A DNA stretch of 64,000 bases from Terriglobales bacterium (GCA_035606395.1 DATNFK010000009.1:68209-132208); one strand, 5' to 3'. Positions 41,093-62,376 are shown, counted from the stretch's first letter. Translations and numbers: made by a program. Notes: generated by a model from the sequence alone, not told the origin.

Positions 41093-41124
41093 TCTATACT
41101 TTTGTGATTCGAGGACTGTTTAAC

Positions 41125-41730
41125 ATGAAGCATTTGTTTCGCCACTCCTGTGTTTGCCTTTCCATACTGGCTTGCGCCGCTTTCGCGCAAACGACGCCCG
41201 CGCCTGCCACGGCGCCGCCCGCCACTTCGCCCACCGTCACCGGTCCCTCCAAGGTGGGCATCCTGAACATTCAAGAGGCGATCGAAACCACCGGCGAGGG
41301 CAAGAAGCTCGAGGCCGCCCTCAGTGCTCGGTTCGCGCCCAAGTCCGCCGAAATCGCGGCCGCCCAGAAAGAAATCGCGACCCTGCAGAACCAACTCAAT
41401 AGCGGCAGCAACACCATGTCGGACGCGACCAAGGCTGACCTGCAACGCCAGATTCAAACCAAGCAGCGCGACGCCCAGCAGGTTGCCGACAACGCCCAGA
41501 CTGATTACCAAGCCGCACAGGCGGACATTATGAACACCGTCGGCGCAAAGATGATGGAGATTCTGAAAAAGTACGCCGAGGAACACGGCTATACCGCCAT
41601 CATTGACGTCAGCCTGCCCTGGCCGCAGAGCCCGGTGCTGTACTTCAACCCCGGCACCGTGGTCACCAGCGACATCGTCAAGCTCTACGACGCCGCCCAC
41701 CCGGTCGCCGCCACGACTGCCAAGCCGTAA
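41125..41730 (+). CDS. skp: periplasmic chaperone Skp/OmpH
   Basis: The ATG at 41125 follows GAGGA. The product has a signal peptide and a coiled, Q/A-rich OmpH-like sequence. It lies directly after bamA. Confidence 0.8.
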   Translation: MKHLFRHSCVCLSILACAAFAQTTPAPATAPPATSPTVTGPSKVGILNIQEAIETTGEGKKLEAALSARFAPKSAEIAAAQKEIATLQNQLNSGSNTMSDATKADLQRQIQTKQRDAQQVADNAQTDYQAAQADIMNTVGAKMMEILKKYAEEHGYTAIIDVSLPWPQSPVLYFNPGTVVTSDIVKLYDAAHPVAATTAKP

Positions 41731-43589: not shown

Positions 43590-44410
43590 ATGCCATATTT
43601 CAGTGACAGATATTTTCGCAGCGCCGGGGGCAGCGTGAGCGCCAATTCCTGCCAGGTCAGCAGTTTGCAGCGCGTCTTCAATTCGGTATCGCGCGCGCAC
43701 GCGAAGAGTTCTCCCGCCATCTCGATTAGGTCGGGTCGCCGCTCGTCAACCATCACGCAAAACGCCGCGCCGGCGGCATGCGCGGCGAGCACGTTTCTAA
43801 TTAATTGATAGGCGGCGAATTTGCCGTCAAGCCGCGGCAAGCCCTCCACATCGAAGACCGAAGCCAGGTCACGGTAGCGCAAGACCAGGTCGGCGCGCTG
43901 GGTTTGAAAGTCGCTTTCGGTGAGCTTGGCCTCGACCAGCAGATCACCCAGCCGCATGTCAATCTCGGTGCGGTCGAACAAATTCCGAGCGAGCGGAACC
44001 CGCGCCTTGAAACCGAATTCGGGTACCGATCCCGGCGCAACCCCGAGCATGCCCGTCACCGCGGCGCGGCCGCACACCCCCGGATAACAGAAAATATTCA
44101 TCAGCAGCGCGTCGGAACTCATGCACGAGTCGAGTTCGCGCCAGGCGCCGCCCTCGGGATGTGGCGGCAATCCTCGCCGTTTGGCGGTATGGATTTTTCC
44201 CAGACGGGCGGCCCAGTCGGGGCGTTTCAAGATCGCGCGATAACTTGCAGGGATGAAATTGCCGTGGTCTTTCCCTTCTGGCGACGCGAAAAAAAGCGAT
44301 ACGCCGCCCAAGGTTTCCAGGCGCCGCACACCCGCGCTCGCGGCCATCGCGGCGTTGCGTTCAGCGAGCTCGAGCCGTAGACGGAGCGAAAATTGAGCCC
44401 GCGCTCTCAC
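43538..44410 (-). CDS. hypothetical protein with PD-(D/E)xK restriction-endonuclease-like motif
   Basis: Carries EIDMRLGDLLVEAKLTESDF (D-x(n)-E-x-K). The start is the GTG at 44410, directly after the PQQ-dehydrogenase stop, or the ATG at 44347. Confidence 0.45.
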   Translation of the reverse strand: MRARAQFSLRLRLELAERNAAMAASAGVRRLETLGGVSLFFASPEGKDHGNFIPASYRAILKRPDWAARLGKIHTAKRRGLPPHPEGGAWRELDSCMSSDALLMNIFCYPGVCGRAAVTGMLGVAPGSVPEFGFKARVPLARNLFDRTEIDMRLGDLLVEAKLTESDFQTQRADLVLRYRDLASVFDVEGLPRLDGKFAAYQLIRNVLAAHAAGAAFCVMVDERRPDLIEMAGELFACARDTELKTRCKLLTWQELALTLPPALRKYLSLKYGIHGRGLKPTLRHSGPVE

Positions 44411-44411
44411 C

Positions 44412-46304
44412 TCACGGCAGCGTGTACGCCACCGCCGAATCGCCCAGCTTGGTGCCGAGCTTGCCGTGCCCCCCGGCGCAGATCACGACGAACTGCCTGC
44501 CGTTGATCTCGTAGGTCATGGGCGTGGCCTGCCCGCCCGCGGGTAGCGCGACTTCCCACGCCAGCTTGCCGGTGGCGGAGTCGAAGGCGCGGAATTTTCC
44601 GTCCATGGCCGCGGCGGTGAAAACCAGGCCGCCGGCGGTTGCTATGGGCCCGCCGAGGTTGGGCGTCCCGGTGTGTTGGCCCGCGATGAAAGTGCCGAGC
44701 GGCACGCTCCATGCGATCTTGCCGCTGAATACATCGAGTGCCACCACCGAGCCCCAGGGCGGCTGGTTGCAGGGCAGGTGAGCCGCCGCATCGGGCGCCA
44801 TGAGAAACGTACGGTAGAGGCCATAAGGCGTCTGCGCCTGGGGAGCGAATTCGCCCGAAGTGCGGTTGGGCACGTTGTCTCCCGGCGCCGCCGCGCGCTC
44901 CTGGGCGAAATCGGCTCTGGGAATCAGCCGGGCGTAGGGCAGAAGATTATTCACGTCGGCTATGAACAGGTGCCGCGTCGGGTCGTACGCGGCGCTGCCC
45001 CAGTTCACGCCGCCGATGTTCCCAGGTACCGTAATGGATCCGCGCAAGCTGGGCGGTGTGTAGATCCCCTCGCTGCGGGCGGAACGAATCTGCGCCGTGC
45101 ACCAGGCGCGATCGGCGGCGGTGGCACCGAACACAGCCTCGGGATTGGGCGCCACTTGCGGAACGAGCGATGGCAGCGCCGAAAACGGCTGCGTGGCGGA
45201 GGTTTGTTCGCCCGGCACATCCGACTGCGGCACGGCGCGTTCGGTCACCGCGACCAACGGTTTGCCGGTGAGCCGATTGAGCACAAAGACATTTCCGGTC
45301 TTATTTGTGACGGCGATGGCGGGCGTGCCGTCCTTCCAGGTGAAGAGCACCGGCTCGGCGGCAACGTCGTAATCCCATAGATCATGATGGGTAAGCTGAA
45401 AGGCCCAGACCTTGTGGCCATCCGAGGCGCGCAGCGCGACCACCGAATCGGCGTCGGCGTCGTTGCCCGGCCGCTCGCCGCCGTAATAATCGGGGCTGGC
45501 GCTTCCGGTCGGCACATAAACCATGTCATGCTCCGCGTCGGCCGCGATGGTGGACCAGGCATTGGCCGCCCCGGTGCGGGTTTTCTGGTGTTCTGCCCAA
45601 GGAATCGGATCCCACGTCCACGCCAGCTTGCCGGTCCGAACGTCATAGGCGCGGACGACGCCTTGTTCCAGGCTGACGGCGCGATTGTCGCCGATCGAAG
45701 AGCCGACAACCACCCGGTCGCCAATCACCGTCGGCGCCGATGTGATTTGGTAATTTCCGGGGTCGCGCAAACCCACGCCTTGGGTTAGGTCCACCTCGCC
45801 GTTGTGGCCGAACCCTGCGCACGGTTTGCCGGTGGCCGCATCGAGCGCGATGAGGCGGGCGTCGAGCGTACCCACAAGCACACGCTGCGAGCAGGCGACA
45901 CTCGGCCGGGGCGCGCCCCACAACGCCACGCCGCGCGATGAAATCTCAGAATAGTCCAACACGCCGAGGTGGGGGCTGAATCTCCAGCGTTCGGCGCCGG
46001 TCGCGGCATCGAGCGCGAACACTTCATCGATCGGGTCGGTGAGATACAGCGTACCGTGATCGAGCACCGGCGTGGCCTCGAAGGCGGCCTTCTGCTTGAC
46101 CGCGTTCACGACGCCGGTTGGCAGGCGCTCCCACATGCCGGTGTGAAACGTCCAGGCAACTTTGAGTTGGCCAACGTTGGAGGCGGTAATCTGCCGCGCG
46201 CTCGAAAAGCGGGCGCCGGCGTTGGTGCCGCCGTAGGCGGGCCAGCCCGCGGACTGCGCGGCAAGCGCCGTAGCGGCAAAGGCAATGAAAAATGCAAGTC
46301 TCAT
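44412..46304 (-). CDS. secreted PQQ-dependent dehydrogenase (quinoprotein glucose/sugar dehydrogenase-like beta-propeller)
   Basis: 630 aa with a signal peptide. It carries WPAYGGTNAGARFSSARQITASNVGQLKVAWTF, typical of PQQ propellers. Confidence 0.8.
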   Translation of the reverse strand: MRLAFFIAFAATALAAQSAGWPAYGGTNAGARFSSARQITASNVGQLKVAWTFHTGMWERLPTGVVNAVKQKAAFEATPVLDHGTLYLTDPIDEVFALDAATGAERWRFSPHLGVLDYSEISSRGVALWGAPRPSVACSQRVLVGTLDARLIALDAATGKPCAGFGHNGEVDLTQGVGLRDPGNYQITSAPTVIGDRVVVGSSIGDNRAVSLEQGVVRAYDVRTGKLAWTWDPIPWAEHQKTRTGAANAWSTIAADAEHDMVYVPTGSASPDYYGGERPGNDADADSVVALRASDGHKVWAFQLTHHDLWDYDVAAEPVLFTWKDGTPAIAVTNKTGNVFVLNRLTGKPLVAVTERAVPQSDVPGEQTSATQPFSALPSLVPQVAPNPEAVFGATAADRAWCTAQIRSARSEGIYTPPSLRGSITVPGNIGGVNWGSAAYDPTRHLFIADVNNLLPYARLIPRADFAQERAAAPGDNVPNRTSGEFAPQAQTPYGLYRTFLMAPDAAAHLPCNQPPWGSVVALDVFSGKIAWSVPLGTFIAGQHTGTPNLGGPIATAGGLVFTAAAMDGKFRAFDSATGKLAWEVALPAGGQATPMTYEINGRQFVVICAGGHGKLGTKLGDSAVAYTLP

Positions 46305-51947: not shown

Positions 51948-53573
51948 ATGTCGCACCTTCATCGCCTTTACTTTGGCTGCTTTGTCCTGGCATTGGCCGC
52001 TACCGCCGCGGCCGCACAATCCACACCCCCTACGTTGCCCGTCACCAGCAACCCGGCGGTCGCGCACGATGTTTCGCTGCCGCTTTCCGCCTTGATCGCC
52101 CAGGCCCCGGCGCCAACGCCGCCGCGCCCGCGCGTTGTTCCCACCGGCGCGCGCCGCACGCCTCCGCCGCCGCCCGCCCCCGTGGTGCCGCCTCCGGTTG
52201 ATCCCGCCGCCGCGGCGATCGAACAGACCACCGTCGGAACCCGTCCCGCCGCCGCCCTGGTCGCCAGCTTTGATGGATTGACCGGCCGCAATCCCAGCGA
52301 CAACAGCCTGGCCATCGGCCCCGACGCCATTCTCCAAACTGTCAACTCCAACCTGGCGATCTATTCCAAGACCGGCGACCTACGCTATGGCCCCATCATC
52401 AGCCGCACCGTCTTCAACGGTTTCAAGGGCGAGTGCGGCGAGGTCGGCTTCGGCGATGTCGTCGTGCGTTACGATCAACTCGCCAAGCGCTGGGTTTTCG
52501 TCATGCCGATTTTTCGCAAGCCGACCGGCAGTACCGACACCACTCCCTACGGTATGTGCTACGCCGTCAGCGCGACCAGCGATTTACTCGGCCGCTATTA
52601 CCGTTACGATTTTGCCCGCACTCTTTTCCCCGACTATCCCCGGCTCGGCGTCTGGCCCGACGGATACTATCTCGGCACCTCGACCGGCGATACCGTGATT
52701 CAAAAACACGCCTGCGTCGCCGATCGTACCGCCATGCTCAAAGGGCGTGACGCCCGCGAACAGTGCGCCATCGCCGACGGCATCAACTTTTTGAACCCCG
52801 CCGACATTGAAGGACGCGCCACCCCGCCCTCAGGCGCTCCGAATCTAATGTTCGCCGGCGGCGGCACCCAGCTCCACAACGATTTTGAAAGCAGCTCGAT
52901 CTTCTACTACAAATTTCACGTTGACTGGAAGCAGCCCTCGCGCTCCACCTTCCAGGGGCCGTACTCGATCGCGGTCGCGCCCTACCATTACCTTTGCAAC
53001 GGCCAGCTCACCAGTTGCGTCCCGCAGCCCGGGACCGAAAACCGTCTTGACGCCCAGGGTGACAAGCTAATGCAGCGCCTGGTCTATCGCAAGATCGGCA
53101 AGCGCGAACTGCTCCTGGTCGAGCACTCGGTCAACACCGCCGATGGCGGAGGAGGCGTGCGCTGGTACGAACTCCAGCTCGACCCACAGCGCAATCCGGT
53201 TTTAGTGCAGCAGGGAACGTACGCTCCCAAAGATTCGGGCGAAAGCAGTTTCCGCTGGATGGCCAGCCTGGGCCTCGACCATGCCGGCAACATTGCCGCC
53301 GGCTACTCCTTCGGCGACGCCAAAACGTTCGCTGGCCAACGCTTCTCCGGGCGACTGGCGAGTGATCCTCCCGGCAAATTCACCCTGGCCGAAACCGTCT
53401 TGGCCGAAGGTGGCGCGGCCCAGACCAATACCGTTCGCTGGGAAGACTACACCACCATGGACGTCGACCCCAGCGACGATTGCACCTTCTGGTACGTCGG
53501 CGATTACCTCAAGCCCAACGCCACGAGCTACACCACCCGCATCGGCGCCATCCGCCTCCCCGGCTGCCATTAA
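51948..53573 (+). CDS. secreted hypothetical protein (Pro-rich linker then ~430-aa globular region)
   Basis: The ATG at 51948 gives MSHLHRLYFGCFVLALAATAAAAQ. I recognised no family. Confidence 0.6.
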   Translation: MSHLHRLYFGCFVLALAATAAAAQSTPPTLPVTSNPAVAHDVSLPLSALIAQAPAPTPPRPRVVPTGARRTPPPPPAPVVPPPVDPAAAAIEQTTVGTRPAAALVASFDGLTGRNPSDNSLAIGPDAILQTVNSNLAIYSKTGDLRYGPIISRTVFNGFKGECGEVGFGDVVVRYDQLAKRWVFVMPIFRKPTGSTDTTPYGMCYAVSATSDLLGRYYRYDFARTLFPDYPRLGVWPDGYYLGTSTGDTVIQKHACVADRTAMLKGRDAREQCAIADGINFLNPADIEGRATPPSGAPNLMFAGGGTQLHNDFESSSIFYYKFHVDWKQPSRSTFQGPYSIAVAPYHYLCNGQLTSCVPQPGTENRLDAQGDKLMQRLVYRKIGKRELLLVEHSVNTADGGGGVRWYELQLDPQRNPVLVQQGTYAPKDSGESSFRWMASLGLDHAGNIAAGYSFGDAKTFAGQRFSGRLASDPPGKFTLAETVLAEGGAAQTNTVRWEDYTTMDVDPSDDCTFWYVGDYLKPNATSYTTRIGAIRLPGCH

Positions 53574-53613
53574 CGAGCAAGATTCGGCGGGCTTATTTCG
53601 GGTACAATCCCGT

Positions 53614-56256
53614 ATGCTTGCCCCCGGCACCCGCCTCGGTCCGTACGTGATTGCCGGCCCCTTGGGGGCGGGCGGCATGGGCGAAGTTTACCGCGCACAC
53701 GACTCCCGGTTGCAGCGCGAGGTTGCGATCAAAGTTTTACCCGCCGCGCTCGCCCACGATCCCGAAGCGCTGCGCCGGCTGGAGCAGGAGGCGCGCGCCG
53801 TTGCCGCGCTCAACCATCCCAACCTGCTCACCGTTCACGATGTCGGCACGACGCCTGAAGGGTCCCCCTTTCTGGTTTGCGAATTGCTTGAGGGCGAGAC
53901 GCTGCGCGAGGCCTTGGCGTCAGGGCCGGTGGCCCAGCGCCGCGCCGTGGACTATGCCGTCCAGATTGCCCGGGGCCTCGCCGCCGCCCACGAAAAAGGA
54001 ATCGTTCACCGCGACCTCAAGCCTGCCAACATCTTCATCACCAAGGATGGCAGGATTAAAATCCTCGACTTCGGCCTGGCCAAGTTGATCGAGCGCGCCG
54101 CCTCGGATGAGCGTACTGTTGCCGTCGGCCTGGCTGTGGGCGACACCGCTCCCGGCATGGTGCTCGGCACCGCCGCCTACATGTCGCCCGAGCAGGCGCG
54201 CGGACAGGCCGCCGATCAACGCAGCGACATCTTCAGCTTCGGTGCTGTGTTCTACGAAATGCTGTCGGGCCAGCGCGCCTTCCGCGGCGATACCGCCGCC
54301 GATATCATTAGCAGTATTCTGCGCGAGGAGCCGCCGGAGCTTGCGACCACAAAGACCGCGGGTTCGGCAATTACTTCGCCGGCGTTGGAACGCGCCCTCG
54401 ACCGAATCATCCGCCACTGTCTCGAGAAATCTCCCCAGCTTCGCTTCCAATCGGCGGGTGACATTGCCTTCAGCCTGGCCGACCTCAGCCAGGCGACCAC
54501 CGGCTCGGAATGGGCGCAGACCGGCCCCGACGCCGTTTCGTTCTTCACCCCCCGGCGCATCGGCTTCTCTGCCGTCGGTCTCTCCGGCCTCCTCCTGGCG
54601 GTCGTCGCCACCTGGATGCTGGCGGCCAACCGCGCGCCGTCCGCCCCGGCATTCCGCCGCCTAACCTACGAACAGGGCATCATCAACCGCGCCCGCTTTG
54701 CCGGCGATAGCCAGGACGTGATGGGCTCCGGGCGCTGGAACGAAGCGGCGGCGAACACGTTGTTTTCTGTCCGTGCCGATCTCACCGGTTTGCAGGAGCT
54801 GCCCGTCCGGCCGGCTCAGATTTTGGCCATGGGCCACGAGCAGGTTGCTGTGCTCTATGATCTTCATGGCCTGGGCGGCTATTCACTGTATGGCACTTTG
54901 GCGGTGATGCCGCCGAGCGGCGGTCAGCCGCGCCCGATGCTCGATTCAGTCCAATTCGCTGACTTTGCGCCGGCCGGTGATTTGGCTATTACCCGTTTTC
55001 ATCCCGACAGCAGCACGTTCACTCTCGAATATCCAGTTGGGACAGTGTTGTACCGCAATGGTGGTTGGATTGGCGATCCCCGTTTTTCACGTGATGGCAA
55101 AAGCATCGCCTTTATTGACCATCCCAATCTCGGCGATGACTTGGGGCGCATCGCGGTCGTCGCGCTGGCCAGCCGGAAGAAACTGGATCTGACCCCTCTC
55201 TACGCCACCGCCCAGGGGTTGGCCTGGTCGCCGTCAGGCCGGGAAATCTGGTTCACCGCTTCGAATACCATTGATCGCACGCTCCGCGCCGTCACCCTCT
55301 CCGGTAAGGTGCGGTCGCTGTATGAGAGCGCCGGGAATCTCACCATCCAGGACACTCTCGCCGATGGCCGGGTTCTGCTCACGGCTACCAGCCAACGGCA
55401 GTACCTGAAAGTGGTGACCGCGCAACAGCCGCGGCCCCATGAAATGTCGGTGCTCGACTGGCCTCAAACCGCGGCCATTTCCGGCGACGGACGTCAGTTG
55501 CTGGTCGGCGATGAAGACGCGGGCACTCATTACTCCACCTATCTCCGTCCGATCGGCGCCCCCGCCGGCAGTGATGCCCCGATTCGTTTGGGCGACGGTG
55601 ACCCAATTGCGCTTTCGCCCGACGGCAAATGGGCGGTGAGTGTCGTGCCGTCCACGCCGGCGCAGCTCTTACTGTTGCCGACCGGCACGGGGAATCCGAT
55701 GCCTGTAGTCTCGAACATAGATTTCTCCAATAGTCAATTCGGCGCATGGCTTCCCGACAGCAGCGCCTTTCTTGCCTCCGGCAACGAACCCGGTCACCCG
55801 CTGCGCACCTTCCGAGTCGGCGTTAATGGCGCCGTCGCCCCGTTGACAAGCGAAGGCGTCATTGCCATTCTTTACACGCCCGACGGCAAGGCACTGGTGG
55901 AAAGGAAACTTGGCGTTCCCGGTTATTTCATCGCACCCATCGTCGGCGGTCCGCCGCAAGCCATTGTCGGCTTACAAGCCCGTGAGATCCCGATTCGTTT
56001 TAGTGCCGACGGCAAGTCGCTGTTCGTCAGTCGCGCACCGGCGACGGAAACTCAGGACATGGTTGACCTCACATCGCAGCTCTGGCGCATTACACTCGCT
56101 TCCGGCCAGCGCACGCTCCTCGCCTCCGCCACGCCGGATGGCGTTGCCGGCTCGAATGCGGCGCGCATTCTCTCCGTCTCCGGCGACGGAACCGTCTTCG
56201 CCTACCTCTACGGCCAATCCCTCTCCACCCTCTACCTCGTCACCGGCCTGCGCTAA
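53614..56256 (+). CDS. Ser/Thr protein kinase with one TM helix and C-terminal TolB-like beta-propeller repeats
   Basis: The ATG at 53614 gives MLAPGTRLGPYVIAGPLGAGGMGEVYRA, followed by HRDLKPANI and DFGLAK. Propeller repeats include SRDGKSIAF, SPDGKWAV and SADGKSLF. Confidence 0.9.
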   Translation: MLAPGTRLGPYVIAGPLGAGGMGEVYRAHDSRLQREVAIKVLPAALAHDPEALRRLEQEARAVAALNHPNLLTVHDVGTTPEGSPFLVCELLEGETLREALASGPVAQRRAVDYAVQIARGLAAAHEKGIVHRDLKPANIFITKDGRIKILDFGLAKLIERAASDERTVAVGLAVGDTAPGMVLGTAAYMSPEQARGQAADQRSDIFSFGAVFYEMLSGQRAFRGDTAADIISSILREEPPELATTKTAGSAITSPALERALDRIIRHCLEKSPQLRFQSAGDIAFSLADLSQATTGSEWAQTGPDAVSFFTPRRIGFSAVGLSGLLLAVVATWMLAANRAPSAPAFRRLTYEQGIINRARFAGDSQDVMGSGRWNEAAANTLFSVRADLTGLQELPVRPAQILAMGHEQVAVLYDLHGLGGYSLYGTLAVMPPSGGQPRPMLDSVQFADFAPAGDLAITRFHPDSSTFTLEYPVGTVLYRNGGWIGDPRFSRDGKSIAFIDHPNLGDDLGRIAVVALASRKKLDLTPLYATAQGLAWSPSGREIWFTASNTIDRTLRAVTLSGKVRSLYESAGNLTIQDTLADGRVLLTATSQRQYLKVVTAQQPRPHEMSVLDWPQTAAISGDGRQLLVGDEDAGTHYSTYLRPIGAPAGSDAPIRLGDGDPIALSPDGKWAVSVVPSTPAQLLLLPTGTGNPMPVVSNIDFSNSQFGAWLPDSSAFLASGNEPGHPLRTFRVGVNGAVAPLTSEGVIAILYTPDGKALVERKLGVPGYFIAPIVGGPPQAIVGLQAREIPIRFSADGKSLFVSRAPATETQDMVDLTSQLWRITLASGQRTLLASATPDGVAGSNAARILSVSGDGTVFAYLYGQSLSTLYLVTGLR

Positions 56257-57700
56257 TCGCCGGCCTTATAGCACCCCCGCTATCGGCAATCGCGGCGTGG
56301 TGCTTGGCGCCGGAGCCGGTCACGCGCGCGAGCACGGCCTCGAGCAGCGGGGTCATGCGGCGCAGTTGGCGAGCTCGGATCACCACATTCCAAAGCGCCT
56401 CGAAGCGCTTCCATCCCGCCGCGTAAAAGAAATGCTTGGCTTGGTGTTTGACGGAACCATGCGCCAGCGAGGCGCGGGCGATGGCGCCCCAGGTATAAAA
56501 ATCGCGGTAGGCGCGATCGTAGCCCGCTTCGAGCCTCGGCGCGGTCAACTTCGCCGGGCGGTAAACGGCATGGCGCGTATCATACAAATCCCAGTCGCGC
56601 GTGACAATGCGCCCCTCCCGCTCCATCTGCTGCCAGAGCCGCGTTCCTGGATAAGGGGTCTGTATGTGAAAGGTTGCGGTGGTGATGCCTTGGGCGATGG
56701 CCCACTCGACGGTGCGTTGGAATACGTCTTCGTCGTCATCGTCCATGCCGAAGACGAAGCTGCCGTTGATCATGATGCCCAAACTATGCAGGCGATCGCA
56801 CACCGCCTTGTAATCGCGGCCCAGGTTCTGGCGTTTGTTGCTGCCGGTGAGGTTGGCCGGCGACAGTGTCTCGAAGCCGACGAAGAGGCTGCGCAGCCCC
56901 GCCTCGGCGGCGCGTTCGACCAGATCGCCGCGCAGCACAGCGTCCACGGTGGCCGCGCCCTGAAAAAGCCGGCCCATGCCCCGCATGCCATCGAACAGCG
57001 CGCGCGCAAAGCGTATGTCGCCGAGCAGGTGGTCGTCGAGGAAGTATAAATGGCGCCCCGGTAGCCGCGCGATCTCGGCCAGCGCCGCATCCACCCGCTG
57101 CGTGTAGAATCCGCGGCCTCCGCTGAAAAACGCGTCCTTGTAACAGAAGTCGCAGTGCTGCGGGCAGCCGCGCGTTACGACGATTGAATTGGGCACCAGA
57201 TAATTGCGGCGCCGGATCAAATCGCGCCGCACCGGCGGCACCGCCTCCAGGCTGCGTCCCGAGGTTGAACGGTAACGTGGCGCGTAGCCCGCCCGCGCCT
57301 GAAATTCCTTCAGGAATTCCGGAAACGTCTGCTCCCCCGGCCCCAGGAAAATTACGTCCGCATGCGGCGCGGCTTCCTCGGGGAGTGACGTTACGTGAAG
57401 TCCGCCCAGCGCCACGCAGGCGCCGCGGCCGCGGTAAAGGTCGGCCAGACGGTAGGCGCGATAAGCGTTGGTGATGTAGACCTGGATGACCACGAGATCG
57501 AAGTCCCCCTCGACCTCGCGCCGCAGCTCCAGCGGCGCCACGTGCTCGTCCTCAAGTACGGCTTCGTCGTCGCCATTCAAATATCCGGCAAGCGTCGCCA
57601 GGCCGAGCGGTGGAAACAGCGAATACTTCACCGGGCGAAAATACGGGCTGGTCGCCTCGGTCAGCGCCGGCAAGATGAACTTCACCCGCAGCCGCCTCAT
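56240..57700 (-). CDS. class B (B12-binding domain) radical SAM enzyme with DUF4070-like C-terminus
   Basis: The ATG at 57700 overlaps the uppS stop (ATGA). The product has an N-terminal B12-binding-like domain and the CPQHCDFC (CxxxCxxC) cluster motif. Confidence 0.8.
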   Translation of the reverse strand: MRRLRVKFILPALTEATSPYFRPVKYSLFPPLGLATLAGYLNGDDEAVLEDEHVAPLELRREVEGDFDLVVIQVYITNAYRAYRLADLYRGRGACVALGGLHVTSLPEEAAPHADVIFLGPGEQTFPEFLKEFQARAGYAPRYRSTSGRSLEAVPPVRRDLIRRRNYLVPNSIVVTRGCPQHCDFCYKDAFFSGGRGFYTQRVDAALAEIARLPGRHLYFLDDHLLGDIRFARALFDGMRGMGRLFQGAATVDAVLRGDLVERAAEAGLRSLFVGFETLSPANLTGSNKRQNLGRDYKAVCDRLHSLGIMINGSFVFGMDDDDEDVFQRTVEWAIAQGITTATFHIQTPYPGTRLWQQMEREGRIVTRDWDLYDTRHAVYRPAKLTAPRLEAGYDRAYRDFYTWGAIARASLAHGSVKHQAKHFFYAAGWKRFEALWNVVIRARQLRRMTPLLEAVLARVTGSGAKHHAAIADSGGAIRPAISAGR

Positions 57701-58356
57701 CGCCGCCCCAGGCCGGCGACGCTCGCCATCGGAAGGCCGCCAAAGCGCCGCTGGCGGTGCGCGAAGCGGGCGAGCGCCCGGCGCAAATGCCTGCCGGAGA
57801 ACTCCGGCCACGGCACTTTGGTAAAGATCAATTCCGCGTACGCCGATTCCCAGAGGAGGAAATCCGAAAGACGCTGCTCGCCGCCTGTGCGGAGCAGCAA
57901 GTCAACCGGCGGCGCGCCCGCCACCACGGCTGCGCCGGCGCGCTCGATTTCGGCGCGCGACGAATAATCAATGGCCAACCGTAGCCACAGGCGCCGGCCG
58001 CCGGCGGTCGCGCTCTCCGTTGCCGCCATGGCCTCGACTAAGGTGCGGGGCAGACGATCGCGCCGGCCTATGAAGCCGCATCGCACCCCGGCGGCGGCGA
58101 GCCCATCTGTTTCCTGGCGCAAATAGAATTGAAGCAGGCCCAGGATGCCCGCCACTTCGGCAGCCGGGCGGCGCCAATTGTCGCTGGAGAAGGCGTAGAT
58201 CGTCAGCACGCCCACGCCACAGCGGGGCGCCGCCTTGACCACCCGCCGCACCGCCGAGACGCCGGCCTGGTGCCCAGCGCCGCGCGGCCATCCCCGGGCT
58301 TCGGCCCAGCGCCCGTTGCCGTCCATGATGATCGCCATGTGTAAAGAACTTTGCAT
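57697..58356 (-). CDS. uppS: cis-prenyltransferase (undecaprenyl-diphosphate synthase family)
   Basis: Carries AIIMDGNGRWA, FSSDNWRRP and RTGGEQRLSDFLLWESAYAEL. The ATG at 58356 is preceded by GGAGGG. Confidence 0.9.
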   Translation of the reverse strand: MQSSLHMAIIMDGNGRWAEARGWPRGAGHQAGVSAVRRVVKAAPRCGVGVLTIYAFSSDNWRRPAAEVAGILGLLQFYLRQETDGLAAAGVRCGFIGRRDRLPRTLVEAMAATESATAGGRRLWLRLAIDYSSRAEIERAGAAVVAGAPPVDLLLRTGGEQRLSDFLLWESAYAELIFTKVPWPEFSGRHLRRALARFAHRQRRFGGLPMASVAGLGRR

Positions 58357-58380
58357 TGTAAAGTATCCCTCCAAAAAAAT

Positions 58381-58740
58381 TTAGCCCGCGCCCTCGACCG
58401 CCAATTTGCCGAGGCCATGAGGAACGCGAGCGGCGGCCGCATCGGCCACCACGTGCTGGAGCTGGTCGAGATAAACGACGAATCGCGCCCGGCCGCTGCG
58501 CGTCAGCTTGCAGCGCGTCTCCGGGCGCTTCCGCCGGAAGCTCTTCTCGATCGCCACCATGCCGGCGGTCTCGAGCACCGCCAAATGCCGGCTCAGGTTG
58601 CCGTCGGTGAGGCCGCACAACTGCTTGAGGTCATTAAAACGAAGGCCTTGCGGATGCGACGCCAGCGAGGTCACGATTCCCAGCCGCGCGCGCTCGTGGA
58701 TCACCCGGTCTAAGCCGGCGTACTCAAATCGTGCCGCCAT
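58381..58740 (-). CDS. winged-helix transcriptional regulator (HTH_34/ArsR-like)
   Basis: The ATG at 58740 gives MAARFEYAGLDRVIHERARLGIVTSL..LTDGNLSRHLAVLETAGMV. The track ORF start at 58998 is a spurious extension. Confidence 0.75.
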   Translation of the reverse strand: MAARFEYAGLDRVIHERARLGIVTSLASHPQGLRFNDLKQLCGLTDGNLSRHLAVLETAGMVAIEKSFRRKRPETRCKLTRSGRARFVVYLDQLQHVVADAAAARVPHGLGKLAVEGAG

Positions 58741-59353
58741 CGTTCGCCTCCTGTCTCGAAAAGCGCCACAGCACCAGCGCCGCCAATGATTGTCCGGCGG
58801 CGAATGGCGCCGCCATCCGCCATGGCGCCAGCGCGGCGCCGTCGCCGCTGGCCAGGATCGATGCCAGGCCCGCCGCCAGGTACCATCCCGCCACGGCGAG
58901 TGTGGCCCGGGGGAGGAAGCGGCAACTGGCAAACACTCCCAGCGCAAAAAGGATCTGCCACAACCCCGGCAGCAGCGCCGCATCCGCCGGGCGCGCACGC
59001 ACCAATGCCATCGTCAGTAGCAGACCCGCCGCCGCGGCCGGCAAAAATTTTTCGAGCGCGCCGCGGATCATCTCTGGCGCCAACCCTTGGTGCAGGCGCC
59101 GCGTGCGCGCCACTCCCTCAATGGCGATCAGTGCCGCCGCCGCGGCGGCAACCACGCTCCAAAAATAGGCATAGGCGCCCGGCGCCACCATCGGTTTCGG
59201 CACCCATGCCTTCTGCACTGCGCCCGCCAGCACAGCAAGAGCCGCGGTGCCGCCCAGCGCCAGCGGTCCATAGCCGCGGAACTGCTCTGCCCGCGCCACC
59301 TGACCGCGAATGGCGGCGATATCATCCAAGGCCTGGCGCAATTCGTTCACCAT
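58724..59353 (-). CDS. polytopic membrane protein, unknown function
   Basis: The ATG is at 59353 and about 5 TM helices are predicted by eye. Its end overlaps the regulator start by 17 nt. Confidence 0.55.
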   Translation of the reverse strand: MVNELRQALDDIAAIRGQVARAEQFRGYGPLALGGTAALAVLAGAVQKAWVPKPMVAPGAYAYFWSVVAAAAAALIAIEGVARTRRLHQGLAPEMIRGALEKFLPAAAAGLLLTMALVRARPADAALLPGLWQILFALGVFASCRFLPRATLAVAGWYLAAGLASILASGDGAALAPWRMAAPFAAGQSLAALVLWRFSRQEANDGGTI

Positions 59354-59399
59354 TACTTTGTACTGCAAAGCACGGCGGCTGTCAAGTCTGCGCGCCCCG

Positions 59400-62030
59400 T
59401 CAATCCTGCCGGAGGGCGCGCACGGGATCCACCGCGGCGGCTCTCCTGGCCGGAATGAAGCTGGCGATGCCGGCAGCGGCAAGCATGGACGCGGTAACCG
59501 CGGCCAATGTGATCGGATCCAATGCCGACACTCCGTACAGAAGGGACGATACTGAGCGGGAGGCTACCACGGTAAGTGCCAGACCGATGGCAAGACCGGC
59601 CGCGCTGAATGCCAAACCCTGGCGCACCACCATTGCGATCACATCACGTCGGGCCGCGCCGAGTGCGATGCGCACTCCGATTTCGGCGGTGCGCTGCCGA
59701 ACTGTGTAGGCGAGCAACCCATACAAGCCAATCAGCGCAAGCAGGACAGCAATCGCGGCGAAACCGGCCAGGATCACGGTCTGAAAGCGGCGCCGGGCTT
59801 CGGATTCGCTGCTTCGCTCTGCCATGGTCCGGATGTCGGCGAGCGTCAGAGTCGGGTCAAGTCCCCGCAATACCTGCCGAATCGCTGGAATCAAGGTCGC
59901 GGGAGGGAGCGATGTTGCGATGGCCAGATTACCAGATGCTCGGGACGGAATGTAAATGGTTGGCAGAGGCACTGACTCAAGGTCGTTGCGTCGTACATCT
60001 GCCGCGACCCCAACTATGGTCAACCACTGTTGACTAAAGAGACAGCAGTGCAGATGGCCTCCTAGAGCGTGGCCGTGGGGAAAATAGCGCTTCGCGAAGG
60101 CGGCGCTGACAATCACCGGCGGCGCGGCATTGCTGCCGCCTGTCGGCATGTCATTCCAATTCAACGGGCGCCCTTGCAGCAGCGGCGTCGCCATCGCTTG
60201 CAGGAAATCTCCGGATACCTGCTGCCAATCCGCCTGCTGATCATCTTGATTGGCATAACCTTCGACAGAGAAAGTGGAGGTGCCAAGCCCGGCTGTTAGC
60301 GGCAGGTGATTGGTGCTCCCGACTGCGGCAACTCCCGGCAGTGTCGCAATACGCTCCTGCACCTGGCGAAAAAGGGAAGCCGCTTGCTGTTGCGAGTGCT
60401 GACTCTGGTCCAAGGCGACGCGCACGGTGAGGGTGGTAGGCGAGAATCCCTTGGCTTCGCGTTGGATATGAACATAACTTTTGATCAAAAGTCCGGCGCC
60501 GACCAAAAGGAGAACCGCCATCGCTACATTGCCGACAATCAGCAACTGCCGCATGCGCGCGTGCCCGCCGGCAACGCGACTACCGCCGACGCGAAGCCAT
60601 TCGCTGATGCGAGTGCGCGAGGCCGCCAGCGCCGGCAGAACGCCAAACAATACGCCTGTGCCGAGCGTTAGAGCGCAGGCGACGGCAAGTACCCGGCCAT
60701 CAACCGTCGCCTGCTCGATGCGGGGCAGGTTGGCGGGATGGATAGCTGCCAGGGCCTTCGTTGCCAACACCGCGAGCGCCGTACCCAGGATACCCCCGCC
60801 CACGGCGAGGAGCAGCGATTCAGTAAGCAGTTGTCTGACCAGGCGCGCGCGCGGCGCTCCCAGAGCGATTCGAATTCCCATTTCATGACTGCGATCCACG
60901 GCGCGCGCCAGAAGGAGGTTGGCCGCATTGCCGCACGCTACCAGCAACACCAGACCTACGGCCAGCGACAGCAATTCGAGCAGGGTGCGCGATGGGCCCA
61001 CCAGGGAATCCACCATACTCACCAAATAGGATTGTGTTCCTCGCATTTCCGGTACGTTCCGCGGGTCGAGTTGGGCGGCGATCTTCGACATTTCCGTCTG
61101 CGCTTGGCCGAGCGAAACGGTTGGCCGCAAACGGCCCAACACCGCCGACGCGAGCAGCATGCGGTTCGCTTGTTGTTGCGGCGTGAGCGCAACCGGTACC
61201 CAGATGCCCGTGCCACCGGCGGACATCTCCCCATGTCCTGGAAAATCGGAAGCGTGAGGATAGTTGAAACCAGGCGGCATAACCCCTACGATCTGACGCT
61301 GCGTTCGTCCAATCTTGACTCTGTGCCCGATAATGTCGGGGTTCTGACCGAACTGCCGGCGCCAGACATCATAGGAAATCACCGCAACCGGGTTGGCGGC
61401 CGGGCTGTCGTCACTGTCGGTAATGCCCCTTCCCAGGAGCGGCTTAACTTCCAACGTGGCCAGAAAATTTCCCTGCACAAAGGCGCCATCCTCGCGCACC
61501 GGATCCGCCGCGGTATAAAGCGTCAACGGAGATTGCTGAAAGGCTGTGATCGCCGAGAAGGAGTGGCTCATTGTTTGCCAGGCATTGACGTCCGCGAACG
61601 ACGGACCCATCTCTCGTGGCAGCGAGCTGTAGCGCGGTAGCGGGCTCCACATGTAGACCAGGCGCCCCGCGTCCCCGTAGGGTAGCGAACGCAATAACAC
61701 TGCGTTGACAATGCTGAAGACGCTGACGCTGGCGCCCACGCCCAGTGCCAACGCCAACAGCACGGCCGCCACGAAGCCGGGCGCGCGAGCGAATAAACGC
61801 AGGCTGTGGCGCAGGTCGCGATTCAGAATGCTTGCGTGTTCGCGCGGCGCGCTGCGCAGCGTATCGATCAATAGGCCTCGCCGCGCGCCGGCGCTCCGGG
61901 CATTGCGCAAACGATCGGCGATCACGCTCTCCATCTGGTCGCCGTACTCCTGGCGGAACTCGGCGGGATACAGGTGTAAAAGGGCGCGGTAGCGGAGTGG
62001 GAGCTTAGAAGCGGTGTGGCGTAAGTCCAT
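59400..62030 (-). CDS. ADOP-family duplicated ABC permease (two MacB-like periplasmic + FtsX domains)
   Basis: The ATG at 62030 gives MDLRHTASKLPLRYRALLHLYPAEFRQEYGDQMESV, the typical N-terminus of the PadR-associated acidobacterial permeases. FtsX-type TM bundles occur twice. Confidence 0.85.
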   Translation of the reverse strand: MDLRHTASKLPLRYRALLHLYPAEFRQEYGDQMESVIADRLRNARSAGARRGLLIDTLRSAPREHASILNRDLRHSLRLFARAPGFVAAVLLALALGVGASVSVFSIVNAVLLRSLPYGDAGRLVYMWSPLPRYSSLPREMGPSFADVNAWQTMSHSFSAITAFQQSPLTLYTAADPVREDGAFVQGNFLATLEVKPLLGRGITDSDDSPAANPVAVISYDVWRRQFGQNPDIIGHRVKIGRTQRQIVGVMPPGFNYPHASDFPGHGEMSAGGTGIWVPVALTPQQQANRMLLASAVLGRLRPTVSLGQAQTEMSKIAAQLDPRNVPEMRGTQSYLVSMVDSLVGPSRTLLELLSLAVGLVLLVACGNAANLLLARAVDRSHEMGIRIALGAPRARLVRQLLTESLLLAVGGGILGTALAVLATKALAAIHPANLPRIEQATVDGRVLAVACALTLGTGVLFGVLPALAASRTRISEWLRVGGSRVAGGHARMRQLLIVGNVAMAVLLLVGAGLLIKSYVHIQREAKGFSPTTLTVRVALDQSQHSQQQAASLFRQVQERIATLPGVAAVGSTNHLPLTAGLGTSTFSVEGYANQDDQQADWQQVSGDFLQAMATPLLQGRPLNWNDMPTGGSNAAPPVIVSAAFAKRYFPHGHALGGHLHCCLFSQQWLTIVGVAADVRRNDLESVPLPTIYIPSRASGNLAIATSLPPATLIPAIRQVLRGLDPTLTLADIRTMAERSSESEARRRFQTVILAGFAAIAVLLALIGLYGLLAYTVRQRTAEIGVRIALGAARRDVIAMVVRQGLAFSAAGLAIGLALTVVASRSVSSLLYGVSALDPITLAAVTASMLAAAGIASFIPARRAAAVDPVRALRQD

Positions 62031-62376
62031 ATTGCCTCGCATGAGCCAGTGATGCTTCCAGGCGCGCCGCCTCCGCCCGCGCCACTCGCCGGCCGAGAGG
62101 GGTGAGGCGGTAGTAGCGGCGGCGCGCATCGTCGTCGGCCGGCCGTTCCTTCCGGCGTAGCTCGGAGATCAAGCCCTGTTCCAGCATGCGCTTGACAGTG
62201 CCATACATACTGCCGGGATTGAGCTGCAGTTTGCCGCCTGTGCGGGCGGCCACTTCCTGCATGATGGCGTATCCGTGCTGTTCGCCGCCGGCGAGGGCGA
62301 CGAGAATGTGGAACGCCTGCGGCGAGAGCGGCAGCAGGGATTCCGGCGCGTTGTCGGGCGTGATTACCATGCGCAC
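62005..62376 (-). CDS. PadR-family transcriptional regulator
   Basis: Carries ALAGGEQHGYAIMQEV, LNPGSMYGTVKRMLEQGLI and RRRYYRLTPLG. The start is the GTG at 62376 or the ATG at 62370. Its end overlaps the permease start by 26 nt. Confidence 0.9.
   Translation of the reverse strand: MRMVITPDNAPESLLPLSPQAFHILVALAGGEQHGYAIMQEVAARTGGKLQLNPGSMYGTVKRMLEQGLISELRRKERPADDDARRRYYRLTPLGRRVARAEAARLEASLAHARQYGLTPHRF

What the first reader, a model, noticed from the sequence alone, without database searches (positions are those of the whole stretch)
56240..58356. cis-prenyltransferase (uppS-type) translationally coupled to a B12-binding radical SAM enzyme, outside the canonical uppS neighbourhood
The uppS-family gene has its motifs intact (DGNGRW, RTGGEQRLSDFLLW). 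Its stop overlaps the start of a class-B radical SAM gene as ATGA. The radical SAM product has a B12-binding-like N-domain, CPQHCDFC and a DUF4070-like tail. In many bacteria uppS sits with frr/cdsA/rseP/bamA/skp. Here bamA-skp (38141-41730) lacks those partners, and the prenyltransferase lies 17 kb away with the radical SAM gene. Class-B radical SAM enzymes methylate or C-C couple unactivated lipid carbons. Established examples are hopanoid methylases, archaeal tetraether synthase and bacterial membrane-spanning-lipid synthase. The pairing therefore suggests modification (methylation or coupling) of a polyprenyl or other lipid product. This is relevant to the unusual branched or membrane-spanning lipids reported from Acidobacteria. 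It is a hypothesis only.
Basis: partly seen in the sequence, partly recalled or inferred. Interest (0 to 1): 0.55.

Follow-up and report, generated by a model that had tools for sequence, protein, structure and literature searches.

The report
Regulated prenyltransferase–radical SAM envelope operon
The prenyltransferase–radical SAM gene pair is real and is the tail of a four-gene operon belonging to a previously undescribed, operator-controlled set of cell-envelope genes found in several bacterial phyla, whose very highly conserved radical SAM enzyme has no known function.

Summary
An uppS-type gene (57697-58356, -) overlaps a class-B radical SAM gene (56240-57700, -) by ATGA.

The pair is the distal half of an operon: membrane protein, HTH_34 winged-helix regulator, uppS, rSAM. 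A 19-bp palindrome (TACTTTGCAATGCAAAGTA) occurs twice in the window, once abutting the first gene and once containing the uppS start codon.

The uppS belongs to a separate clade (NCBIfam NF011412-like). Its members follow the membrane-protein/regulator pair and never show the frr-uppS-cdsA-dxr arrangement. Terriglobales also carry a canonical cdsA-linked uppS.

The rSAM belongs to an uncharacterised orthologue group that is 75-80% identical across Acidobacteriota and Alphaproteobacteria and 65% in a Bacteroidota. It fits no curated family (HpnR, HpnJ, BchE).

The rSAM follows this uppS in 31 of 82 public loci. Elsewhere it is solitary or faces a small phosphoglycosyl transferase, and often carries the same palindrome upstream. 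CreD and DUF4153 are alternative cargo.

Best reading: an envelope regulon in which the rSAM acts on a polyprenyl-phosphate-linked substrate. The regulon is well supported; the substrate is inferred.

The specific link to acidobacterial branched or membrane-spanning lipids is not supported.

The parts
59380..59385 (-). Candidate -35 hexamer TTGACA of the operon promoter. It lies in the 46-nt gap after the upstream permease gene.
   Evidence: Read directly. A TTGACA box at comparable spacing precedes the palindrome in most Terriglobales loci. The consensus promoter scan did not call it, so this is an inference.
59354..59372 (.). Operator 1: a 19-bp palindrome (minus strand TGCTTTGCAGTACAAAGTA) that abuts the ATG of the membrane-protein gene.
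   Evidence: PWM score 23.7. The pattern matches only twice in the 64-kb window against 0.06 expected by chance. The same palindrome lies upstream of the homologous gene in 42 loci.
58724..59353 (-). Membrane protein of 209 aa: an N-terminal amphipathic helix plus about 5 hydrophobic segments. It matches no Pfam or NCBIfam family. It is the presumed partner or sensor of the regulator.
   Evidence: ORF; no family hits. Homologues sit in the same position in 55 loci, with few conserved polar residues. Its stop overlaps the next gene's start by 17 nt.
58381..58740 (-). Winged-helix (HTH_34, ArsR-like) transcription regulator of 119 aa. It is the presumed binder of the palindrome.
   Evidence: PF13601 E=8.5e-21. 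It is encoded next to the palindrome in nearly all loci of the clade. A 33%-identical homologue with the same palindrome occurs in a Bacteroidota plasmid.
58347..58365 (.). Operator 2: the palindrome (minus strand TACTTTACAATGCAAAGTT) containing the uppS start codon. ATG-CAA-AGT encodes the conserved Met-Gln-Ser N-terminus.
   Evidence: PWM score 27.2, an exact pattern match, and sequence read. Forty such sites lie just upstream of or over uppS starts in other loci. The MQS N-termini are visible.
57697..58356 (-). cis-Prenyltransferase (UppS family, NF011412-like clade) of 219 aa. This is the short form, lacking a 28-residue variable segment.
   Evidence: PF01255 and TIGR00055 hits. NF011412 scores 303 bits, below the cutoff of 334, while orthologues score 353-377. 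Catalytic motifs are conserved. Short 211-220 aa forms are common in the clade.
56240..57700 (-). Class-B-type (B12-binding-domain) radical SAM enzyme of 486 aa. It belongs to a very highly conserved, uncharacterised orthologue group and is translationally coupled to uppS by an ATGA overlap.
   Evidence: Domains; no curated family reached. More than 8000 homologues, with the top 120 at 75-100% identity. The group forms a single 50%-identity cluster. The model has pLDDT 90.8 and its closest structure is AprD4, followed by cobalamin-dependent enzymes.

Best explanation
The pair is the distal half of a four-gene operon: membrane protein, HTH_34 winged-helix regulator, dedicated cis-prenyltransferase, class-B radical SAM enzyme. 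Two copies of a 19-bp palindrome control it. One overlaps the promoter of the first gene and the other covers the uppS start codon.

The regulator, its membrane partner and this operator define a regulon found in several phyla. Its cargo genes are all inner-membrane or envelope functions:
- a special UppS paralogue;
- this rSAM;
- CreD;
- a small phosphoglycosyl transferase;
- DUF4153.

Proposed working:
1. The regulator, probably a repressor whose activity is set by the membrane protein, releases the operators in response to a membrane or envelope signal.
2. The extra UppS then makes polyprenyl diphosphate.
3. The rSAM, acting at the membrane, carries out a radical C-H functionalisation on a polyprenyl-(di)phosphate-linked molecule. 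That molecule is either the isoprenoid chain or a sugar head group installed by the phosphoglycosyl transferase. The reaction would be methylation if cobalamin is really bound.

Shown: operon anatomy, clade separation, cross-phylum conservation, shared operator.
Inferred: repressor role, the signal, the substrate and the chemistry.
For: - Operon anatomy: the membrane-protein and regulator genes overlap by 17 nt, the gap between regulator and uppS is 24 nt, and uppS and rSAM overlap by 4 nt.
- Adjacency: uppS lies directly upstream of the rSAM in 31 of 82 non-redundant genome loci (Terriglobales, Stellaceae), with the membrane protein and regulator ahead of it wherever the contig extends far enough. 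The 4-nt overlap is available in 20 of 23.
- The uppS is a separate clade. Orthologues pass NF011412. Thirty-four metagenome loci of the clade have the regulator upstream and none has cdsA, frr or dxr. Twenty-eight lower-identity uppS loci have cdsA directly downstream.
- A canonical cdsA-linked uppS exists in Terriglobales.
- Operator: 115 PWM sites in 1.74 Mb. Of these, 109 lie within -30 to +260 nt upstream of the membrane-protein gene (42), uppS (40) or rSAM (27). There are 0 sites in 43 canonical uppS loci covering 298 kb. The window has 2 sites against 0.06 expected.
- rSAM genes not adjacent to uppS still carry the site: 7 of 12 PGT-linked and 18 of 36 solitary.
- Independent polyprenyl-phosphate link: a ~190-aa Bac_transf PGT faces the rSAM in 13 loci.
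- Envelope cargo: CreD with its own operator sits between regulator and uppS in 4 Terriglobales loci. A cultured Bacteroidota has membrane protein, regulator, creD, rSAM.
- A non-orthologous B12-rSAM (24% identity, BchE-like) occupies the same slot in Methylobacterium terrae.
Against: - No direct evidence for substrate or chemistry.
- The association is facultative. Only 1 of 34 uppS-clade metagenome loci has this rSAM downstream. About half of the rSAM loci show no neighbouring uppS, PGT or operator at my threshold.
- The closest structure, AprD4, has a B12-like domain that, to my knowledge, does not bind cobalamin, and it acts on a sugar. So methylation and a lipid-chain target are both uncertain.
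- The membrane protein has no conserved catalytic-type residues and no known family.
- That both uppS types occur in one genome was not shown.
- Binding of the palindrome by this regulator is inferred from co-location only.
Confidence: 0.45

Rival explanations
1. The genes are co-regulated but chemically independent. The regulon is an envelope-stress or remodelling set, and the extra UppS merely raises lipid-carrier supply. The rSAM modifies something else, such as a hopanoid, a fatty-acyl or lipid A component, a cofactor, or a protein or RNA.
For: - The cargo of the regulon is heterogeneous: CreD, DUF4153, PGT, and an ECF sigma cluster nearby.
- The rSAM often stands alone or follows the regulator pair without uppS.
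- The uppS clade mostly lacks the rSAM downstream.
- The very high conservation of the rSAM relative to uppS (75-80% against 55-63%) suggests constraints unrelated to the UppS partner.
Against: - Translational coupling to uppS is conserved in two phyla.
- An independent recurrent pairing with a polyprenyl-phosphate-using PGT exists.
- A second, non-orthologous B12-rSAM was recruited to the same slot behind this uppS clade.
- No alternative substrate pathway genes recur nearby.
Confidence: 0.3
2. The operon is a small terpenoid natural-product cassette. The cis-prenyltransferase paralogue makes a short or irregular Z-prenyl diphosphate, and the rSAM tailors it by methylation or cyclisation into a signalling or defensive metabolite.
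For: - From my own knowledge, cis-prenyltransferase paralogues are used this way elsewhere, for example Z-farnesyl and lavandulyl-type synthases. Short-chain enzymes are among the PDB relatives.
- A dedicated regulator is typical of such cassettes.
Against: - All IPP and allylic binding motifs are of the canonical UppS type.
- There is no cyclase, P450 or exporter, and no other tailoring gene recurs.
- The regulon partners are envelope proteins: CreD and a PGT.
- Sequence conservation is far higher than is usual for natural-product enzymes.
Confidence: 0.1
3. The rSAM makes or methylates the branched or membrane-spanning lipids (iso-diabolic acid, brGDGT) of Acidobacteria.
For: - The family occurs in Terriglobales, Solibacteraceae and Vicinamibacterales.
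- The enzyme that makes iso-diabolic acid in Acidobacteria is unknown, because no Mss homologues were found there (PMC13159169).
Against: - The same orthologue group (72-77% identity) is in Sphingomonas, Stellaceae, Parvularculaceae, Dormibacterota and Tepidisphaeraceae, and at 65% in a Bacteroidota. To my knowledge none of these makes such lipids.
- The solved tetraether synthase does not appear in the sequence or fold searches of the PDB.
- An operator-controlled gene coupled to uppS is an odd setting for a bulk core-lipid synthase.
- No fatty-acid or ether-lipid genes recur nearby.
Confidence: 0.05
4. The adjacency is fortuitous: a housekeeping uppS that happens to sit next to an unrelated rSAM.
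For: The window contains only one uppS and no canonical partners. Whether the genome has a second uppS could not be checked.
Against: - The gene order, the 4-nt overlap and a shared operator are conserved across phyla.
- The uppS clade is distinct from cdsA-linked uppS.
- Terriglobales possess the cdsA-linked type.
Confidence: 0.03

Closest known systems
Hopanoid methylases HpnP and HpnR, and HpnJ (class-B radical SAM enzymes acting on isoprenoid lipids)
   Same: They share the B12-binding-domain plus radical SAM architecture. HpnR and HpnJ are the best NCBIfam matches. They are precedents for radical modification of unactivated isoprenoid carbons at the membrane.
   Different: The scores are generic: HpnR 83 against 650, HpnJ 78 against 578. 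No HpnP hit at E<=0.01 appears. No hopanoid genes are nearby. The family also occurs in loci with a PGT rather than any triterpenoid gene.
AprD4 (radical SAM 1,2-diol dehydratase, PDB 6fd2)
   Same: It is the closest solved structure by sequence (E=2e-6) and by fold (TM 0.67-0.72). It has the same three-part layout.
   Different: Identity is only 20-22%. AprD4 works on a soluble aminoglycoside in an antibiotic cluster and, to my knowledge, does not use cobalamin. The genomic context here is envelope or polyprenyl.
Cobalamin-dependent rSAM methylases with structures (TokK, CysS, TsrM, MgmA, OxsB)
   Same: Fold matches with E between 1e-12 and 1e-16. The GG and H residues of the Rossmann domain (G99, G100, H102) are invariant across the wider family.
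   Different: Identity is 13-17%. Their substrates are carbapenams, peptides, tryptophan or nucleosides. None is linked to polyprenyl metabolism.
BchE (anaerobic Mg-protoporphyrin IX monomethyl ester cyclase)
   Same: A BchE-type B12-rSAM (515 bits against a cutoff of 481) sits in exactly the same slot behind membrane protein, regulator and uppS in Methylobacterium terrae.
   Different: The window's enzyme is only 24% identical to it and scores 61 bits against BchE. The two are analogous occupants of the slot, not orthologues.
Housekeeping undecaprenyl diphosphate synthase (E. coli UppS; the frr-uppS-cdsA-dxr arrangement)
   Same: It has the same fold family and all catalytic motifs, and passes the TIGR00055 cutoff.
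   Different: The clade is different (NF011412-like). It is always preceded by the membrane-protein/HTH_34 pair and an operator, and never by frr or followed by cdsA. The window's copy lacks a 28-residue variable segment.
ArsR/SmtB-type autoregulated operons with palindromic operators
   Same: A small winged-helix regulator is encoded in the operon it appears to control, through an inverted repeat overlapping the promoter.
   Different: Only weak similarity to metalloregulator models (32.5 bits against 55). The regulator is paired with a translationally coupled multi-pass membrane protein. The effector is unknown.
Lipid-carrier homeostasis and envelope-stress regulons (for example B. subtilis SigM, PMC11081497; the CreBC-CreD regulon)
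   Same: Both are regulated sets of inner-membrane genes touching undecaprenyl-phosphate supply and envelope integrity. CreD is a cargo gene here.
   Different: The regulator type and operator are different. The presence of a radical SAM enzyme has no counterpart in those systems. The comparison is functional only and rests partly on my own knowledge.

Membership tests
Class-B (B12-binding domain) radical SAM enzymes | N-terminal Rossmann-type B12-binding domain | tested here: met
   PF02310 E=3.1e-11, 43.6 bits against a gathering score of 32.1, residues 28-129. The model shows a beta-alpha domain that superposes on TokK, TsrM and OxsB.
Class-B (B12-binding domain) radical SAM enzymes | Radical SAM core with a CxxxCxxC cluster motif | tested here: met
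   PF04055 E=3.9e-10. C179, C183 and C186 are invariant in 20 close and 57 distant homologues.
Class-B (B12-binding domain) radical SAM enzymes | Actual binding and use of cobalamin | not testable with these tools
   The closest structure is AprD4, which to my knowledge lacks cobalamin, so binding cannot be assumed. Spectroscopy or cofactor analysis of purified protein is needed.
Hopanoid C-3 methylase HpnR (TIGR04367) | Score at or above the curated equivalog cutoff (650 bits) | tested here: not met
   83.2 bits.
HpnJ (TIGR03471) | Score at or above the cutoff (577.6 bits) | tested here: not met
   77.7 bits.
BchE (TIGR02026) | Score at or above the cutoff (481.35 bits) | tested here: not met
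   60.9 bits. By contrast, the Methylobacterium slot-mate scores 514.9.
Archaeal tetraether synthase (Tes / GDGT-MAS) | Sequence or fold similarity to the solved enzyme | tested here: not met
   It is not among the PDB sequence hits at E<=0.001 and not among the top 50 Foldseek hits.
Bacterial membrane-spanning-lipid synthase (Mss) | Homology to the confirmed Thermotoga or Thermoanaerobacter enzymes | not tested
   No Mss sequence was available here. The original paper reports no mss homologues in acidobacterial genomes at its thresholds (PMC13159169).
UppS / cis-prenyltransferase (PF01255, TIGR00055) | Family model above cutoff, with catalytic Asp (DGNGRW), the SxxNWxRP motif and RTGGExRxSxFLLW | tested here: met
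   PF01255 218 bits; TIGR00055 203.6 against 109.55. The motifs align to E. coli UPPS and are invariant in the clade.
UppS / cis-prenyltransferase (PF01255, TIGR00055) | Product chain length (C55) and head-to-tail condensation | not testable with these tools
   Requires an enzyme assay.
NCBIfam NF011412 (PRK14839) uppS subgroup | Score at or above 334 bits | tested here: not met
   The window protein scores 303.1, lowered by its missing 28-residue segment. Orthologues from Stellaceae, Acidobacteriota and Methylobacterium score 353-377. The window protein is therefore a short-form member of the same clade by context and alignment.
Canonical uppS neighbourhood (frr-uppS-cdsA-dxr) | cdsA immediately downstream, or frr upstream | tested here: not met
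   No cdsA, frr or dxr signature anywhere in the window. Twenty-eight lower-identity uppS loci do show cdsA directly downstream.
The membrane-protein/HTH_34/operator regulon described here | Regulator pair upstream, plus the 19-bp palindrome at promoter or start sites | tested here: met
   Both genes are present. Two palindromes at 59354-59372 and 58347-58365 against 0.06 expected.

The most novel reading that the evidence does not exclude
Soil bacteria of several phyla may possess an inducible system that chemically edits the universal glycan-carrier lipid. A dedicated UppS paralogue would supply polyprenyl diphosphate. The very highly conserved B12-type radical SAM enzyme would methylate or otherwise modify the polyprenyl chain or its first sugar. 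The result would be an altered carrier lipid, for example one that escapes antibiotics binding C55-P, C55-PP or lipid-linked precursors, or one that marks a separate carrier pool. The whole system would be under a membrane-sensing winged-helix repressor.
Probability: 0.15. Interest if true: 0.85.

Novelty: new variant of a known kind. Interest (0 to 1): 0.6.

Why it matters
Undecaprenyl phosphate is the bottleneck lipid for building peptidoglycan, O-antigen, capsules and teichoic acids, and it is a target of several antibiotics. I found no description of a radical SAM enzyme acting on bacterial carrier lipids or their first sugar, nor of a dedicated, operator-controlled second UppS.

The analysis gives a concrete, testable system:
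- a defined operator sequence;
- a regulator and its membrane partner;
- a set of cargo genes;
- cultured hosts carrying the system: Granulicella mallensis, Acidicapsa dinghuensis, Methylobacterium terrae, Chondrinema litorale and Sphingomonas species.

It also assigns a biological setting to an abundant rSAM orthologue group (more than 8000 sequences in public data) that has no annotation beyond 'radical SAM protein'. If the rSAM turns out to act elsewhere, the regulon still describes a new envelope-response circuit in Acidobacteriota, a dominant but poorly studied soil phylum.

Tried and rejected
1. Curated family assignment of the rSAM. NCBIfam and Pfam give only generic class-B similarity. 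Its 35-48% relatives also reach no curated cutoff.
2. Sequence search of the PDB gives only AprD4 at E=2e-6.
3. The first AlphaFold run, on 20 close homologues, was poor (pLDDT 61.5). It was repeated with 57 diverse sequences (pLDDT 90.8).
4. Looking up the window's own contig by exact protein failed.
5. All-against-all clustering of ORFs within 5 kb of the rSAM in 83 loci found no further widely conserved neighbour beyond the membrane protein, regulator and uppS. The PGT was picked up by tblastn.
6. The consensus promoter and terminator scan of 55900-59700 gave nothing above the shuffle level.
7. The idea that the window's short uppS carries a damaging deletion was rejected. Forms of 211-220 aa lacking the same variable segment are common in the clade.
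8. Contexts of the 48% and 41% rSAM relatives show no regulator, uppS or palindrome. The association is therefore specific to the tight orthologue group.
9. Literature searches found nothing describing this system. They covered radical SAM with cis-prenyltransferase, undecaprenyl, phosphoglycosyl transferase and iso-diabolic acid, as well as the palindrome sequence and HTH_34.

Full report
**1. Observation**

On the minus strand an uppS-type ORF (57697-58374) most likely starts at the ATG at 58356, behind a GGAGGG Shine-Dalgarno. It ends in a TGA that overlaps the ATG of a 486-aa radical SAM gene (56240-57700) as ATGA.

The uppS product hits PF01255 (E=1.4e-64) and passes the TIGR00055 uppS cutoff (203.6 against 109.55 bits). 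Its DGNGRW, SSDNWRRP and RTGGEQRLSDFLLWE motifs align with E. coli UPPS.

The rSAM has a B12-binding domain (PF02310, E=3.1e-11), a radical SAM core (PF04055) and CPQHCDFC. The 'DUF4070-like tail' is only a sub-threshold resemblance (E=0.016, 15.7 against 22 bits).

BamA (37853-41092) and Skp (41104-41730) are present without uppS partners. The window has no cdsA, frr or dxr signature and only one uppS.

**2. The pair is half of an operon**

Immediately upstream on the same strand lie two more genes:
- a winged-helix regulator (58381-58740; HTH_34, E=8.5e-21);
- a 209-aa multi-pass membrane protein with no family (58724-59353).

The membrane protein's stop overlaps the regulator's start by 17 nt. 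The regulator stops 24 nt before the uppS ATG.

A PadR/MacB-like permease pair ends 46 nt upstream. A Ser/Thr kinase gene converges on the rSAM 3' end.

**3. The radical SAM enzyme**

More than 8000 database proteins match (the scoring cap). The best 120 are 75-100% identical. They are named from Terriglobales, Acidoferrales, Vicinamibacterales and the alphaproteobacterial family Stellaceae.

In an alignment of 20 members, mean column identity is 72%.

In a library clustered at 50% identity the group collapses into one full-length representative (79%). The next full-length relatives are 48% and 41% identical.

The protein reaches no curated family. HpnR scores 83 against 650, HpnJ 78 against 578 and BchE 61 against 481. 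The more distant relatives reach none either.

A model built on 57 diverse homologues has pLDDT 90.8. Its closest solved structure is the diol dehydratase AprD4 (TM 0.67-0.72). The cobalamin-dependent MgmA, CysS, TsrM, OxsB and TokK follow.

The class-B architecture is therefore confirmed. Cobalamin use and the chemistry are not. The solved tetraether synthase does not appear in either PDB search. The paper that defined Mss reports no homologues in Acidobacteria (PMC13159169).

**4. Conservation of the pairing, seen from the rSAM side**

A scan of one genome per species found at least 581 loci, of which the best 80 were fetched. With loci from exact-protein look-ups, this gives 82 non-redundant public loci.

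| Arrangement | Loci | Taxa or examples |
|---|---|---|
| uppS directly upstream of the rSAM | 31 | Terriglobales incl. Granulicella mallensis and Acidicapsa dinghuensis; Stellaceae |
| ~190-aa Bac_transf phosphoglycosyl transferase divergent from the rSAM | 13 | mostly Vicinamibacterales; a Stellaceae locus has both arrangements |
| membrane protein, regulator, rSAM, with no uppS | a few | L042, L076, L085, L090 |
| solitary | the rest | - |

In the first group the membrane protein and regulator precede uppS wherever the contig extends far enough upstream. The 4-nt stop/start overlap with uppS is available in 20 of 23 loci examined. No other neighbour is widely conserved.

**5. The uppS is a distinct clade, not a displaced housekeeping gene**

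Orthologues from Stellaceae, Acidobacteriota and Methylobacterium pass the NCBIfam equivalog NF011412 (353-377 against 334 bits). The window's copy scores 303.

The lower score reflects a 28-residue variable segment missing from the window's protein. That segment is absent from many natural 211-220 aa members, so this is not damage.

A metagenome scan returned uppS genes spanning 41-62% identity. They split cleanly:
- Thirty-four loci, nearly all those above about 50% identity, have the regulator (and the membrane protein where sequence allows) directly upstream. None of them has cdsA, frr or dxr.
- Twenty-eight lower-identity loci have cdsA directly downstream, often with dxr and frr.

A cdsA-linked uppS from that set has an 85%-identical relative named from a Terriglobales bacterium. 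The order therefore has both types. I could not show both in one genome.

**6. The gene after this uppS is variable**

In the 34 clade loci only one (L099) has the tight rSAM downstream. Other occupants of the slot are:
- DUF4153 (L092, L095, L101, L108);
- a 236-aa membrane protein followed by an ECF sigma/anti-sigma set (L102, L105, L107, L114);
- nothing.

In the complete genome of Methylobacterium terrae the slot holds a different B12-rSAM. It is 24% identical to the window's enzyme and passes the BchE model. The membrane protein, regulator and uppS form the stable core, and the rSAM is one of several cargo genes.

**7. A shared operator ties the parts together**

Aligning the DNA upstream of the membrane-protein gene revealed a 19-bp palindrome, TACTTTGCAATGCAAAGTA, in 48 of 55 loci.
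- In Terriglobales it lies 17-20 nt after a TTGACA box, where it overlaps the -10 region.
- In other lineages it abuts the -35 box.

A weight matrix from these sites found 115 sites in 1.74 Mb of fetched loci. Of these, 109 lie within -30 to +260 nt upstream of the membrane-protein gene (42), uppS (40) or the rSAM (27). None lies in the 43 canonical uppS loci, which cover 298 kb.

Most telling, rSAM genes that are not next to uppS carry the site just upstream. This holds for 7 of 12 PGT-linked and 18 of 36 solitary genes.

The window has exactly two sites against 0.06 expected by chance:
- One (59354-59372) abuts the membrane-protein ATG. A TTGACA sits at 59380-59385.
- The other (58347-58365) contains the uppS start codon. 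Its right half, ATG-CAA-AGT, encodes the Met-Gln-Ser N-terminus conserved in this clade.

The 41-48% rSAM relatives have no such site and no such neighbours.

**8. Further cargo points to the envelope**

In four Terriglobales loci, including Acidicapsa dinghuensis, a CreD gene (PF06123, E=1e-117 to 1e-122) sits between regulator and uppS. It is preceded by its own palindrome.

A cultured Bacteroidota, Chondrinema litorale, carries on a 524-kb plasmid the order membrane protein, regulator (33% identical, E=7e-18), creD, rSAM (65% identical). Palindromes precede the first gene and creD.

**9. Interpretation**

Shown:
- a four-gene operon in the window;
- a distinct uppS clade;
- a very highly conserved, uncharacterised class-B-type rSAM;
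- a common palindrome linking the membrane protein and regulator, uppS, rSAM, CreD and a divergent PGT across Acidobacteriota, Alphaproteobacteria and Bacteroidota.

Inferred:
- The HTH_34 protein binds the palindrome, probably as a repressor because the site overlaps promoter elements or the start codon.
- The membrane protein relays a membrane or envelope signal.
- The rSAM acts on a polyprenyl-(di)phosphate-linked molecule.

The last inference rests on three independent associations. These are translational coupling to the special UppS, recurrent pairing with a polyprenyl-phosphate-using PGT, and recruitment of a second, non-orthologous B12-rSAM to the same slot. Whether the isoprenoid chain or a sugar head group is modified is open. 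AprD4 as the nearest structure and the PGT pairing keep the head-group option alive.

**10. Rivals**

- Co-regulation without shared chemistry is the main rival (0.3). The linkage is facultative and the cargo is heterogeneous.
- A terpenoid natural-product cassette is less likely (0.1). There are no other tailoring genes, the uppS motifs are canonical and the partners are envelope proteins.
The same orthologue group occurs in lineages that, to my knowledge, do not make them, and there is no relation to Tes.
- Chance adjacency is effectively excluded.

**11. Novelty and score**

The parts are known kinds: UppS, a class-B rSAM, an ArsR-like regulator, CreD and a PGT. I found no description of this pairing, the operator or the regulon in the searchable literature.

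I rate it a new variant of a known kind, with interest 0.6. The function of an abundant, extremely conserved enzyme remains unknown. It now has a defined regulatory and genomic setting and cultured hosts in which it can be tested.

Noticed in passing
window 58347-58365: The second palindrome contains the uppS start codon. Its right half (ATG CAA AGT) dictates the Met-Gln-Ser N-terminus seen in most members of this uppS clade, so a regulatory DNA element constrains a protein N-terminus.
   Followed up: partly
L027 5791-7167, L061 5645-7054, L054, L074; L173 5411-6784: A CreD (cell envelope integrity) gene with its own palindrome is inserted between the regulator and uppS in four Terriglobales loci. 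CreD also precedes the rSAM on a Chondrinema litorale (Bacteroidota) plasmid, behind the same type of regulator pair.
   Followed up: yes
L091 7708-9222 (Methylobacterium terrae CP029553): A B12-rSAM that passes the BchE equivalog cutoff (515 against 481 bits) follows membrane protein, regulator and uppS. It is only 24% identical to the window's rSAM. It is probably a BchE-like paralogue with a non-photosynthetic role.
   Followed up: partly
L092 7633-9141, L095, L101, L108 1252-2715: DUF4153, a large multi-pass membrane protein, is translationally coupled to the same uppS clade in place of the rSAM.
   Followed up: partly
L102, L105, L107 6721-10534, L114: In another set of loci the uppS is followed by a 236-aa membrane protein, an ECF sigma factor, a probable anti-sigma factor with a CxxC motif, and a 549-aa secreted protein.
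   Followed up: no
window 57697-58356: The window's UppS lacks a 28-residue segment, corresponding to about E. coli UPPS residues 153-185, that is present in all 22 rSAM-linked orthologues aligned. Forms of 211-220 aa without it are common elsewhere in the clade, for example in Gemmatimonadota.
   Followed up: yes
window 59400-62376: A PadR-type regulator ORF and a 909-aa MacB/FtsX-type permease end 46 nt upstream of the operon on the same strand. Similar permeases recur near the rSAM in 13 loci in either orientation, probably because this pair is very abundant in Acidobacteriota.
   Followed up: partly
window 53281-56256: A long ORF encoding a Ser/Thr protein kinase domain, followed by what looks (by eye, not scanned against any family library) like a TolB/PD40-type beta-propeller region, converges on the rSAM gene. 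The two ORFs overlap by 17 nt at their 3' ends.
   Followed up: no
window 43538-46304: A REase-ARP family nuclease gene (PF22558) lies next to a PQQ-dependent dehydrogenase (PF01011, 703 bits).
   Followed up: no
L176 8490-13004: A 41%-identical relative of the rSAM lies near fatty-acid-handling genes: a Dak2/DegV fatty-acid-kinase-like protein, a 4HBT thioesterase and PlsY. It has no palindrome and no uppS nearby, which hints that the wider family may be lipid-related.
   Followed up: no
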